Assembly (NCBI RefSeq): GCF_009914755.1
Contig: NC_060927.1
Direction: 5' to 3' (one strand)
From: the human T2T-CHM13v2.0 reference genome, Homo sapiens
DNA length: 64,000 nucleotides
Part shown: piece by piece, positions 4,940-37,997 of the stretch
Position numbering within the stretch: the stretch's first letter is position 1
Layout: the number at the start of each line of letters is the position of its first letter
Translations under genes and position numbers: made by a program
Notes under the pieces: generated by a model
Seen by the model: only the letters and a program-made list of their open reading frames with translations
The model's database searches: none
What the model was told of the DNA's origin: nothing

Positions 4940-5730
4940 TTTTTTTTTATTATACTTTAAGTTTTAGGGTACATGTGCACAACGTGCAGGTTTGTTACAT
5001 ATGTATACATGTGCCATGTTGGTGTGCTGCACCCATTAGCTCGTCATTTAACATTAGGTATATCTCCTAATGCTATCCCTCTCCCCTCCCCCCACCCCAC
5101 AACAGTCCCCAGTGTGTGATGTTCCCCTTCCTGTGTCCATGTGTTCTCATTGTTCATTTCCCACCTATGAGTGAGAACATGAGGTGTTTGGTTTTTTGTC
5201 CTTGCGATAGTTTGCTGAGAATAATGGTTTCCAGCTTCATCCATGTCCCTACAAAGGACATGAACTCATCATTTTTTATGGCTGCATAGCATTCCATGGT
5301 GTATATGTGCCACATTTTCTTAATCCAGTCTATCATCATTGGACATTTGGGTTGGTTCAAAGTCTTTGCTATTGTGAATAATGCTGCAATAAACATACAT
5401 GTGCATGTGTCTTTATAGCAGCATGATTTATAATCCTTTGGGTATATACCCAGTAATGGGATGGCTGGGTCAAATGGTATTTCTAGTTCTAGATCCCTGA
5501 GGAATCGCCACACTGACTTCCACAATGGTTGTACTAGTTTACAGTCCCACCAACAGTGTAAAAGTGTTCCTATTTCTCCACATCCTCTCCAGCACCTGTT
5601 GTTTCCTGACTTTTTAATGATCGCCATTGTAACTGGTGTGAGATGGTATCTCACTGTGGTTTTGATTTGCATTTCTCTGATGGCCAGTGATGATGAGCAT
5701 TTTTTCATGTGTTTTTTGGCTGCATAAATG
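4940..5730 (-). mobile_element. LINE-1 3' fragment, L1PA4-like (L1-A)
   Basis: L1PA 3'UTR (ttatactttaagttttagggtacatgtgcac) plus ORF2 C-terminus (ORF 5154-5708, [18 protein letters not shown]); no clear TSD. Confidence 0.95.
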
Positions 5731-6508
5731 TTCTTGTAAAAGTGGTATGATAGGAAGGTATTTTAAAAAATCACATTCCCCAACTTCATCTTACCTTTCT
5801 AATAGAACACCTCATATCCACTCTGAAAATACATTGATCTAAATTTTATGGTGGGCAAAATTTTAAAGAACTTTGCTGAGAAAACCAGAAACCACAAAGG
5901 AACACTGATATTTAGAATCAGGAAGTGCCATCTCTAGTGATTAAAACATTTGGACTGGAGCTGTATTTATCTTTTTAATCAAGTTGTCCTTGTTTGCCAC
6001 AAGGGAAGTAGTGTTACTTCCTGTCTCTGAAGTAGTATTTGATTACAAGGACTAAAGGAAATGTGTATACTTCAAAGAAAATAATTGGACCAGGTGGTCA
6101 TACTTTAGAGTACATTAGCTATCCAGAGACAAGATGCCAATGCCATCGGTATCTCTTCCTTTCTGTACTATCGGGATTGTGTAAACAAGATTTTATAGAC
6201 CTTGTTAGAATGTTTGTAATAAATTTTAATGACATACACATTAATGGTAAGACCTTCAGTTTATAGAGAAAAATAAAATAGTTTTTAAAGTGCCAGGATT
6301 TCTAATGTATTGTGATGGTCCATTTGTAGTAGTGAGAGGTAGGTAAAATGCATCCTTGGTTGACTCTCAGACTCTGAAGATATGTAATCATAGACAGCTG
6401 GGCTGCTGTTTAATGCCATTTTGCAAATGTTATGTTCAGTCTTTGGGATCTACTAGACACTTTAAGAATTCATCTGGTAAATTGCCTTCTGAAAGGCCCT
6501 GTTTTTTT

Positions 6509-34565: not shown

Positions 34566-37500
34566 TTTTTTTAATTCATTATTATTATACTTTAGGTTTT
34601 AGGGTACAGGTGCACAAGGTGCAGGTTAGTTACATATGTATACATGTGACATGCTGGTGCGCTGCACCCACTAACTCGTCATCTAGCATTAGGTATATCT
34701 CCCAATGCTATCCCTCCCCCCTCCCCCAACCCCACAACAGTCCCCAGAGTGTGATGTTCCCCTTCCTATGTCCATGTGTTCTCATTGTTCAATTCCCACC
34801 TATGAGTGAGAATATGCGGTGTTTGGTTTTGTGTTCTTGCGATAGTTTACTGAGAATGATGATTTCCAATTTCATCCATGTCCCTACAAACGACGTGAAC
34901 TCATCATTTTTTATGGCCGCATAGTATTCCATGGTGTATATGTGCCACATTTTCTTAATCCAGTCTATCATTGTTGGACATTTGGGTTGGTTCCAAGTCT
35001 TTGCTATTGTGAATAATGCCACAATAAACATATATGTGCATGTGTCTTCATAGCAGCATGATTTATAGTCGTTTGGGTATATACCCAGTAATGGGATGGC
35101 TGGGTCAAATGGTATTTCTAGATCTAGATCCCTGAGGAATTGCCACACTGTCTTCCACAATGGTTGAACTAGTTTACAGTCCCACCAACAGCGTAAAAGT
35201 GTTCCTATTTCTCCACATCCTCTCCAGCACCTGTTGTTTCCTGACTTTTTAATGATCGCCATTGTAACTGGTGTGAGATGGTATCTCACTGTGGTTTTGA
35301 TTTGCATTTCTCTGATGGCCAGTGATGGTGAGCATTTTTTCATGTGTTTTTTGGCTGCATAAATGTCTTCTTTTGAGAAGTGTCTGTTCATGTCCTTCGC
35401 CCACTTTTTGATGGGGTTGTTTGTTTTTTTCTTGTAAATTTGTTTGAGTTCATTGTAGATTCTGGATATTAGCCCTTTGTCAGATGAGTAGGTTGTGAAA
35501 ATTTTCTCCCATTTTGTAGGTTGCCTGTTCACTCTGATGGTAGTTTCTTTTGCTGTGCAGAAGCTCTTTAGTTTAATTAGATCCCATTTGTCAATTTTGG
35601 CTTTTGTTGCCATTGCTTTTGGTGTTTTAGACATGAAGTCCTTGCCCATGCCTATGTCCTGAATGGTAATGCCTAGGTTTTCTTCTAGGGTTTTTATGGT
35701 TTTAGGTCTAACATGTAAGTCTTTAATCCATCTTGAATTGATTTTTGTATAAAGTGTAAGGAAGGGATCCAGTTTCAGCTTTCTACATATGGCTAGCCAG
35801 TTTTCCCAGCACCATTTATTAAATAGGGAATCCTTTCCCCATTGCTTGTTTTTCTCAGGTTTGTCAAAGATCAGATAGTTGTAGATAGGTGGCGTTATTT
35901 CTGAGGGCTCTGTTCTGTTCCATTGATCTATATGTCTGTTTTGGTACCAGTACCATGCTGTTTTGGTTACTGTAGCCTTGTAGTATAGTTTGAAGTCAGG
36001 TAGTGTGATGCCTCCAGCTTTGTTCTTTTGGCTTAGGATTGACTTGGTGATGTGGGCTCTTTTTTGGTTCCATATGAACTTTAAAATAGTTTTTTCCAAT
36101 TCTGTGAAGAAAGGCATTGGTAGCTTGATGGGGATGGCGTTGAATCTATAAATTACCTTGGGCAGTATGGCCATTTTCACGATATTGATTCTTCCTACCC
36201 ATGAGCATGGAATGTTCTTCCATTTGTTTGTATCCTCTTTTATTTCGTTGAGCAGTGGTTTATAGTTCTCCTTGAAGAGGTCCTTCACATCCCTTGTAAG
36301 TTGGATTCCTAGGTATTTTATTCTCTTTGATGCAATTGTGAATGGGAGTTCACTCATGATTTGGTTCTCTGTTTGTCTGTTGTTGGTGTATAAGAAGGCT
36401 TGGGATTTTTGTACATTGATTTTGTATCCTGAGAATTTGCTGAAGTTGCCTATCAGCTTAAGGAGATTTTGGGCTGAGACAATGGGGTTTTCTAGATATA
36501 CAATCATGTCGTCTGCAAACAGGGACAATTTGACTTCCTCTTTTCCTAATTGATTACCCTTTATTTCCTTCTCCTGCCTAATTGCCCTGGCCAGAACTTC
36601 CAACACTATGTTGAATAGGAGTGGTGAGAGAGGGCATCCCTGTCTTGTGCCCGTTTTCAAAGGGAATGCTTCCAGTTTTTGCCCATTCAGTATGATATTG
36701 GCTGTGGGTTTGTCATAGATAGCTCTTATTATTTTGAGATACGTCCCATCAATACCTAATTTATTGAGAGTTTTTAGCATGAAGCGTTGTTGAATTTTGT
36801 CAAAGGCCTTTTCTGCATCTATTGAGATAATCATGTGGTTTTTGTCTTTGGTTCTGTTTATATGCTGGATTACATTTATTGATTTGCGTATATTGAACCA
36901 GCCTTGCATCCCAGGGATGAAGCCCACTTGATCATGGTGGATAAGCTTTTTGATGTGCCGCTGGATTCGGTTTGCCAGTATTTTATTGAGGATTTTTGCA
37001 TCAATGTTCATCAAGGATATTGGTCTAAAATTCTCTTTTTTGGTTGTGTCTCTGCCCGGCTTTGGTATCAGGATGATGCTGGCCTCATAAAATGAGTTAG
37101 GGAGGATTCCCTCTTTTTCTATTGATTGGAATAGTTTCAGAAGGAATGGTACCAGTTCCTCCTTGTACCTCTGGTAGAATTCGGCTGTGAATCCATCTGG
37201 TCCTGGACTCCTTTTGGTTGGTAAGCTATTGATTATTGCCACAATTTCAGCTCCTGTTATTGGTCTATTCAGAGATTCAACTTCTTCCTGGTTTAGTCTT
37301 GGGAGAGTGTATGTGTCAAGGAATTTATCCATTTCTTCTAGATTTTCTAGTTTATTTGCATAGAGGTGTTTGTAGTATTCTCTGATGGTAGTTTGTATTT
37401 CTGTGGGATCGGTGGTGATATCCCCTTTATCATTTTTTATTGCGTCTATTTGATTCTTCTCTCTTTTTTTCTTTATTAGTCTTGCTAGCGGTCTATCAAT

Positions 37501-37997
37501 TTTGTTGATCCTTTCAAAAAACCAGCTCCTGGATTCATTAATTTTTTGAAGGGTTTTTTGTATCTCTATTTCCTTCAGTTCTGCTCTGATTTTAGTCATT
37601 TCTTGCCTTCTGCTAGCTTTTGAATGTGTTTGCTCTTGCTTTTCTAGTTCTTTTAATTGTGATGTTAGGGTGTCAATTTTGGGTCTTTCCTGCTTTCTGT
37701 TGTGGGCATTTAGTGCTATAAATTTCCCTCTACACACTGCTTTGAATGCGTCCCAGAGATTCTGGTATGTTGTGTCTTTGTTCTCATTGGTTTCAAAGAA
37801 CATCTTTATTTCTGCCTTCATTTTGTTATTGGTATGTTGTGTCTTTGTTCTCATTGGTTTCAAAGAACATCTTTATTTCTGCCTTCATTTTGTTATGTAC
37901 CCAGTAGTCATTCAGGAGCAGGTTGTTCAGTTTCCATGTAGTTGAGCGGTTTTGAGTGAGATTCTTAATCCTGAGTTCTAGTTTGATTGCACTGTGG
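34566..37997 (-). mobile_element. 5'-truncated LINE-1, L1PA2/3-like 3' end (L1-C)
   Basis: 3'UTR ctaactcgtcatctagc; ORF2; TSD ggatctttct 34556-34565/37996-38005 with TTCT/AA site; internal 67-bp tandem duplication. Confidence 0.95.
34789..37863 (-). pseudogene. L1 ORF2p remnant, uninterrupted 1024-aa frame (RT and C-terminus, no endonuclease)
   Basis: RT motifs intact (LFADD), native stop; first residues come from the 67-bp duplication; Cys-rich motif His replaced by Arg (TLLRCWWDC). Confidence 0.9.

What the first reader, a model, noticed from the sequence alone, without database searches (positions are those of the whole stretch)
4940..37997. Allele-sharing network extends to all four L1PA copies over ~40 kb
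Seen in the ORF track and DNA: PVTMAII (recalled consensus PVRMAII) in L1-A, B and C (g at 5629, 7287, 35264). TTVRYHL in A and C. PTKRSPG, AHNRKQ and QNRHIDQ in B and C but not D. IQ(R/W)HIK (recalled IQQHIK) in B, C and D, consistent with CAG>CGG followed by CpG decay to TGG. The sharing patterns are mutually incompatible with a single tree (A+C, B+C, C+D, B+D), with C as a hub. Inference: reticulate exchange among dispersed co-oriented L1s in one chromosomal neighbourhood, i.e. local concerted evolution.
Basis: partly seen in the sequence, partly recalled or inferred. Interest (0 to 1): 0.7.

Follow-up and report, generated by a model that had tools for sequence, protein, structure and literature searches.

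The report
Neighbouring human L1 copies swap DNA
Four separately inserted LINE-1 jumping-gene remnants in one intron share mutations that are rare elsewhere in the genome, likely because neighbouring copies overwrote short patches of each other by gene conversion, and similar local sharing shows up at other chromosomal sites up to about half a megabase wide.

Summary
Four minus-strand L1PA copies (A 4943-5731, B 6582-9836, C 34561-37998, D 42746-46960) are 3-8% apart and fall into two age classes. C and D are identical over 211 bp that carry six rare alleles; a two-allele 21-mer from this tract occurs exactly twice in the genome, in C and D. PVT (169 of 15,818 copies) is in A, B and C; IQ(R/W) (78) in B, C, D; PTKR (38) and AHNR (101 of 6,918) in B and C. 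TTV (2,036) and QNRH (571) are common and weak; A+D sharing is only subfamily. The same rare alleles cluster elsewhere: 13 clusters within 150 kb, about 5-6.5 expected, including eight AHNR carriers of three age classes, on both strands, at chr2:118.06-118.57 Mb. Best reading: repeated short-tract non-allelic gene conversion among neighbours (0.85). Co-orientation is not required and 'concerted evolution' overstates it. The process is known for Alu (<10 kb) and LTRs; I found no L1 study of this range in 10 searches. No independent assembly or ape orthologue was tested.

The parts
4943..5731 (-). L1-A, 5'-truncated L1PA, older-class 3' UTR; no clear target-site duplication found
6490..9855 (-). 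L1-B (body 6582-9836), young class, with a 19-bp target-site duplication (1 mismatch) at 6490 and 9837
34555..38005 (-). L1-C, young class, hub of the sharing; ~10-bp target-site duplication at 34555 and 37995
42743..46967 (-). L1-D, older class; short (8-bp) candidate target-site duplication
36199..36411 (-). C half of the C/D identical tract (211-213 bp) with six rare alleles at 36403, 36397, 36365, 36331, 36262, 36247
44377..44589 (-). D half of the C/D identical tract (likely donor)
36435..36652 (-). Four further C+D rare alleles (36652, 36554 = GNQ, 36450, 36435; D 44830, 44732, 44628, 44613) in 23-45-bp identical stretches separated by age-class differences
5558..5692 (-). A half of a 135-bp A/C identical run holding TTV (5654) and PVT (5629)
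35193..35327 (-). C half of the A/C run (TTV 35289, PVT 35264)
7287..7287 (-). PVT allele in B; B differs from A and C 25 bp and 7 bp away, so any tract is at most 31 bp
7094..9721 (-). B sites shared with C: AHNR 9721/37699, PTKR 9234/37211, QNRH 7957/35934, G>C 7094/35071; IQ(R/W) 8982-8983 (C 36959-36960, D 45137-45138)
45155..45359 (-). Young-type patch in D (approximate limits): 3 sites carry the B/C allele where 2 of 2 mid-age copies differ; next to the IQ(R/W) site; possible B/C-to-D tract

Best explanation
Four independently inserted L1PA copies within 42 kb share genome-rare alleles in mutually incompatible patterns, most likely because double-strand-break or replication repair repeatedly used a nearby L1 copy as template and copied short tracts (about 20-210 bp) without crossover, in both directions, after insertion. 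Shown: separate insertions of two age classes, rare shared alleles, identical tracts, spatial clustering of the same alleles elsewhere. Inferred: gene conversion as the cause; D-to-C direction for the 211-bp tract (load of rare alleles fits D; allele 36247 is an older-class one); B/C-to-D direction for the young patch; an age of under about 6-7 million years for the 211-bp tract (assumed rate, biased by tract choice); the repair pathway itself.
For: C/D 21-mer exactly 2 in the genome; single alleles 16 and 20 genome-wide, each in C and D; longest identical run C-D 213 bp, permutation P 0.0035, A-C 135 bp, P 0.008; doubleton counts; 30 of 30 PVT carriers examined span 0.9-15% from the young majority, so PVT is no lineage marker; two PVT-sharing neighbour pairs (chr1, 7 kb; chr2, 79 kb) have different 3' flanks and share 5 further unique alleles each; eight AHNR carriers at chr2:118.06-118.57 Mb are 1.9-5.7% apart, have eight different 3' flanks and at least three age classes, both strands, and 11 further rare alleles shared in crossing pairs; pair excess falls from 23x (10-50 kb) to 10x (150-500 kb) to 2-3x beyond, against background clumping of 1.1-3.6x; tract sizes match LTR conversion tracts (max 14-450 bp, mean 99; PMC4921805).
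Against: One assembly only; no ape orthologue or second haplotype seen. Sites were chosen post hoc. IQ(R/W), GNQ and the 36331 allele show 0 clusters outside the window (0 of 68, 18, 14 carriers; chrY dropped). Cluster excess is modest once clusters rather than pairs are counted: 13 vs 4.9 (P 0.002) or 6.5 (P 0.016) with assumed 3x-4x clumping; only 3 of the 13 were checked against segmental duplication. B-C, A-B, A-D, and both control neighbour pairs have no significantly long identical run. D also has a 205-bp run with a distant chrX copy. Non-carriers in the chr2 cluster were not counted.
Confidence: 0.85

Rival explanations
1. Chimeric insertion or a local source: younger copies were made from RNA of, or by template switching onto, a neighbouring older copy, so the sharing dates from insertion.
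For: C (young) carries D-type and A-type patches; long L1s are dense at chr2:118 Mb (8 in 515 kb against a mean of about 2 per Mb).
Against: Old D carries a young-type patch (only 2 mid-age comparators); carriers of one allele belong to three age classes; patches are many and as short as 31 bp.
Confidence: 0.06
2. Homoplasy: recurrent or regionally elevated mutation (for example a regional C>G process) plus subfamily alleles mimic sharing.
For: Explains A+D, TTV, probably QNRH and CpG sites. The two alleles that cluster most are both G>C in AGA context: 11 clusters among 186 carriers against 2 among 135 for four other alleles (Fisher P 0.04).
Against: C>G load at AGA/TCT sites is 0.66% in the chr2 cluster and 1.4% in the window, no higher than age predicts; the C/D tract holds five substitution types; the 21-mer is unique to C and D.
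Confidence: 0.05
3. Assembly or polishing artefact: reads of one copy overwrote its neighbour in T2T-CHM13.
For: Tract lengths resemble short-read lengths; no second assembly was available here.
Against: Shared sites have diverged after sharing (CG in C, TG in B and D at IQ(R/W)); sharing spans 80-500 kb and both strands elsewhere, beyond HiFi read length (own knowledge); copies are 3-4 kb with unique flanks.
Confidence: 0.03
4. The copies are tandem or segmental duplicates of each other.
For: Same orientation in the window.
Against: Self-BLAST finds no flank homology; different target-site duplications, 5' ends and age classes.
Confidence: 0.01

Closest known systems
Non-allelic gene conversion between neighbouring Alu elements (Aleshin & Zhi 2010, as summarised in Fawcett & Innan 2019, PMC6598467; original not held)
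   Same: Neighbouring dispersed retroelements share alleles across subfamilies; rate falls with distance.
   Different: L1 rather than Alu; the review gives elevated rates within <10 kb, whereas here sharing links copies 2-36 kb apart and clusters reach 100-500 kb with up to 8 carriers.
Ectopic gene conversion among LTR elements on the human Y (Trombetta et al. 2016, PMC4921805)
   Same: Short tracts (max 14-450 bp, mean 99), patchwork acceptors with several donors, linked donors favoured.
   Different: That work used polymorphism on a Y phylogeny to show direction; here autosomal L1s in one assembly, direction inferred only.
Recombinant full-length young L1s in HPRC (PMC13192797)
   Same: 35 of 2,267 L1 loci called recombinant.
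   Different: In the passages read, they were screened out as between-lineage mosaics and not related to genomic neighbours; L1HS/L1PA2 rather than older truncated copies.
Single-locus L1 conversions in primates and L1-templated break repair in mouse cells (recalled, from no call)
   Same: L1 can be converted by another L1.
   Different: Isolated cases, typically replacement by another subfamily, not a distance-dependent multi-copy network.

Membership tests
Non-allelic gene conversion among TE copies | Copies are separate insertions, not duplicates | tested here: met
   (TSD clear for B and C, short for D, not found for A; flanks unrelated)
Non-allelic gene conversion among TE copies | Shared derived alleles that are rare in the family and cross subfamily lines | tested here: met
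Non-allelic gene conversion among TE copies | Short contiguous tract of identity with one identifiable partner | tested here: met
   C/D and A/C; not met for B-C, where shared sites are isolated
Non-allelic gene conversion among TE copies | Mosaic patterns incompatible with one tree | tested here: met
   B+C, C+D and A+B+C derived alleles polarised on 29 controls; no formal tree test run
Non-allelic gene conversion among TE copies | Rate declines with distance | tested here: met
   (pairs not independent; cluster-level); driven by 3 of 6 alleles
Non-allelic gene conversion among TE copies | Non-reciprocal, post-insertion transfer shown by outgroup or polymorphism | not testable with these tools
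   no ape genome or second human haplotype held
GC-biased gene conversion | Excess of weak-to-strong changes among transferred alleles | tested here: not met
   16:12 shared vs 158:168 private, P 0.43; low power
Concerted evolution (homogenised family) | Neighbours more alike overall than their age class predicts | tested here: not met
   B-C 96.8%, C-D 93.9% against 97% for the 39 best distant hits to C

The most novel reading that the evidence does not exclude
L1 copies within a chromosomal neighbourhood of 0.1-0.5 Mb (contact-domain scale) form a local gene pool: a new point mutation in a dead copy can spread to most L1s of the domain regardless of subfamily or strand, as at chr2:118 Mb, and G/C transversions spread preferentially, for example through short-patch repair of C:C mismatches in heteroduplex DNA.
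Probability: 0.35. Interest if true: 0.75.

Novelty: new variant of a known kind. Interest (0 to 1): 0.55.

Why it matters
Dead L1 copies are used as independent neutral clocks, subfamily markers and mutation-rate substrates; local conversion would bias those uses and create clustered SNPs that short reads mis-map. It also offers a genome-wide fossil record of which loci meet and pair in the germ line: about 16,000 copies and thousands of rare alleles make the distance dependence of ectopic recombination, its relation to chromatin domains, and any mismatch bias directly testable. No effect on PPM1L is implied.

Tried and rejected
PVT as a source-lineage marker: rejected. A+D sharing: ordinary older-class alleles, most present in 12-15 of 14-15 mid-age copies. 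TTV and QNRH alone: common. Several C+D and B+C+D columns (36852, 36808, 36738, 36148, 35719, 35629) are age-class alleles. GC bias: not found. Regional C>G hypermutation: not found in L1 copies. Segmental duplication: rejected for the window and 3 of 13 outside clusters. B-D 188-bp run as proof of B-D exchange: ambiguous, since a chrX copy gives 205 bp over the same stretch. Full MAFFT alignment timed out; BLAST projection used instead. L1s in the flanking megabases were not read; earlier scan notes were not available. Protein, structure and RNA tools were not used: nothing here depends on them.

Full report
Anatomy. Self-BLAST shows four minus-strand L1PA copies, A 4943-5731, B 6582-9836, C 34561-37998 and D 42746-46960, 92-97% identical, with no flank homology. 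They lie in an intron of PPM1L, antisense to it (hub annotation). B and C have clear target-site duplications, D a short candidate, A none found. At 14 3'-end columns A and D carry the older-class alleles and B and C the young-class ones; distance from the majority of 29 control copies is 4.5, 1.9, 2.1 and 4.9%. Subfamily names (roughly L1PA3/4 for B, C and L1PA5/6 for A, D) are recalled, from no call.

All are present. Exact genome-wide counts: PVT 169 against 15,649 for the common allele; AHNR 101 against 6,817; PTKR 38; IQ(R/W) 78; QNRH 571; TTV 2,036. Uncorrected binomial chances given one carrier are 3e-4 (PVT), 1e-4 (IQ), 0.011 (PTKR), 0.029 (AHNR), 0.11 (QNRH) and 0.31 (TTV), the last four partly on assumed denominators. 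PVT is not a lineage marker: the first 30 of 169 carriers lie 0.9-15% from the young majority.

C and D have no mismatch over C 36411-36199 / D 44589-44377 although 5-6% apart overall (permutation P 0.0035). It carries six alleles absent or rare in 45-50 other copies (one, 36247, occurs in 7 of 50 and is an older-class allele). A 21-mer with two of them occurs twice in 3.1 Gb, in C and D; a third allele occurs 16 times, C and D among them; the GNQ allele upstream 20 times, C and D among them. Four more C+D alleles sit in 23-45-bp identical stretches interrupted by sites where C is young-type and D old-type, so there were several short events or a patchy one. A and C are identical over 135 bp spanning TTV and PVT (P 0.008); B has PVT alone, within at most 31 bp. 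D carries young-type alleles at 3 sites beside IQ(R/W) where 2 of 2 mid-age copies differ, suggesting flow into the older copy too; the comparator set is small, and D matches a chrX copy as well as B there.

Controls. In 1,953 pairs among 63 copies (CpG and TTV/PVT columns dropped), alleles unique to the pair numbered 3 for B-C, 6 for C-D, 1 for B-D and 0 for all pairs with A; 0 of 118 pairs of B or C with distant copies had 2 or more. Distant pairs overall gave 285 against 112 expected, and 7 of 1,945 had 5 or more, so the independence model undercounts. The 29 best hits to C are a conservative control for C's alleles but under-represent old copies.

Beyond the window. The same alleles cluster elsewhere. 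With the window and chrY dropped, and PVT limited to chr1-7 (only the first 100 places are listed), pairs within 150 kb number 30 against 1.6 under uniform placement; the ratio falls from 23 (10-50 kb) through 17 and 10 to 2-3 beyond 0.5 Mb, while common-allele copies on chr1 clump 1.1-3.6x. Counted as clusters: 13 against 4.9-6.5 (P 0.002-0.016); 8 same-strand, 5 mixed; three of six alleles gave none. Two PVT pairs (L035/L036, L044/L045) have unrelated 3' flanks and share 5 more unique alleles each. Eight AHNR carriers at chr2:118.06-118.57 Mb are 1.9-5.7% apart, on both strands, with eight different 3' flanks and at least three age classes, and share 11 more rare alleles in crossing pairs over 900 bp (some may be older-class alleles, as controls there are mostly young). 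The other 10 clusters were not checked for segmental duplication.

Mechanism. The likeliest cause is non-allelic gene conversion: repair in one L1 uses a nearby L1 as template and copies tens to about 200 bases. Proximity, not orientation, appears to set the partner. Zero mismatches in 211 bp put that event under about 6-7 million years at an assumed 1.0-1.25e-9 per site per year (biased by choosing the tract). No GC bias was seen (P 0.43) and no regional C>G excess. G>C alleles cluster more than others (11 clusters among 186 carriers against 2 among 135, P 0.04): unexplained; short-patch repair of C:C mismatches is a recalled lead only. Rivals (chimeric insertion, homoplasy, assembly error, duplication) are weighed in their sections; none accounts for the unique C/D haplotype together with the multi-class chr2 cluster, but without a second assembly or ape orthologues, transfer after insertion is inferred, not shown.

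What is known. Fawcett & Innan 2019 (PMC6598467; parts 1-2 of 4 and term passages read) review conversion in Alu, with elevated rates within <10 kb (citing Aleshin & Zhi 2010, not held), Y LTRs, yeast and Drosophila elements; 'L1 elements' occurs once, in another context. Trombetta 2016 (PMC4921805; 12 of 24 passages) gives tract sizes. PMC13192797 (passages) removes 35 recombinant L1s of 2,267. PMC10883270 has no occurrence of 'conversion'; PMC13419748, PMC5237266 and PMC5963298 passages were not relevant. Ten searches listed no study of distance-dependent allele sharing among L1 neighbours; one search showed 30 of 57 hits, all off-topic, the library lacks most subscription journals, and no supplements were read. 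Older single-locus L1 conversion reports are recalled.

Verdict. Real feature; known process; apparently undescribed range and multi-copy spread for L1. Interest 0.55.

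Noticed in passing
G000:C2:118059272-118573409 (L061-L076): Eight long L1s of at least three age classes, both strands, share the 1.5% AHNR allele and many other rare alleles in crossing pairs; a C>G allele at a CpG-context site is in 4 of 8 (1 of 29 controls). A larger network than the window's.
   Followed up: partly
G000:C23:53991392-54964636: Five AHNR carriers within 1 Mb on chrX, mixed strands; not checked for duplication.
   Followed up: no
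G000:C4:128558631-129522553 and G000:C6:87074800-87874617: Five and four PVT carriers within about 1 Mb.
   Followed up: no
G000:C3 whole: PVT carriers are uneven by chromosome: 26 on chr3, 8 on chr2, 3 on chr7; 6 of 16 carriers of the 36331 allele are on chr3, one 1.2 Mb from the window; other carriers of window alleles lie at 160.6-163.1 Mb.
   Followed up: no
G>C alleles in AGA context cluster more (29 of 186 carriers) than A>G and T>A alleles (4 of 135).
   Followed up: partly
window 43090-43120 and about 45950-46020: D has a 21-bp insertion in the ORF2 3' part, a 6-bp insertion and a 66-bp deletion relative to C.
   Followed up: no
window 28697-29343: An older plus-strand L1 fragment, 74-77% identical to A-D; too diverged to test for sharing.
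   Followed up: no
window 6899-9514 and 34789-37872: B and C keep 871- and 1,027-codon open ORF2 stretches but are 5'-truncated, without ORF1 or promoter.
   Followed up: no
L073:353-498: The 3' end of one chr2 copy abuts another L1 fragment (nested insertion).
   Followed up: no
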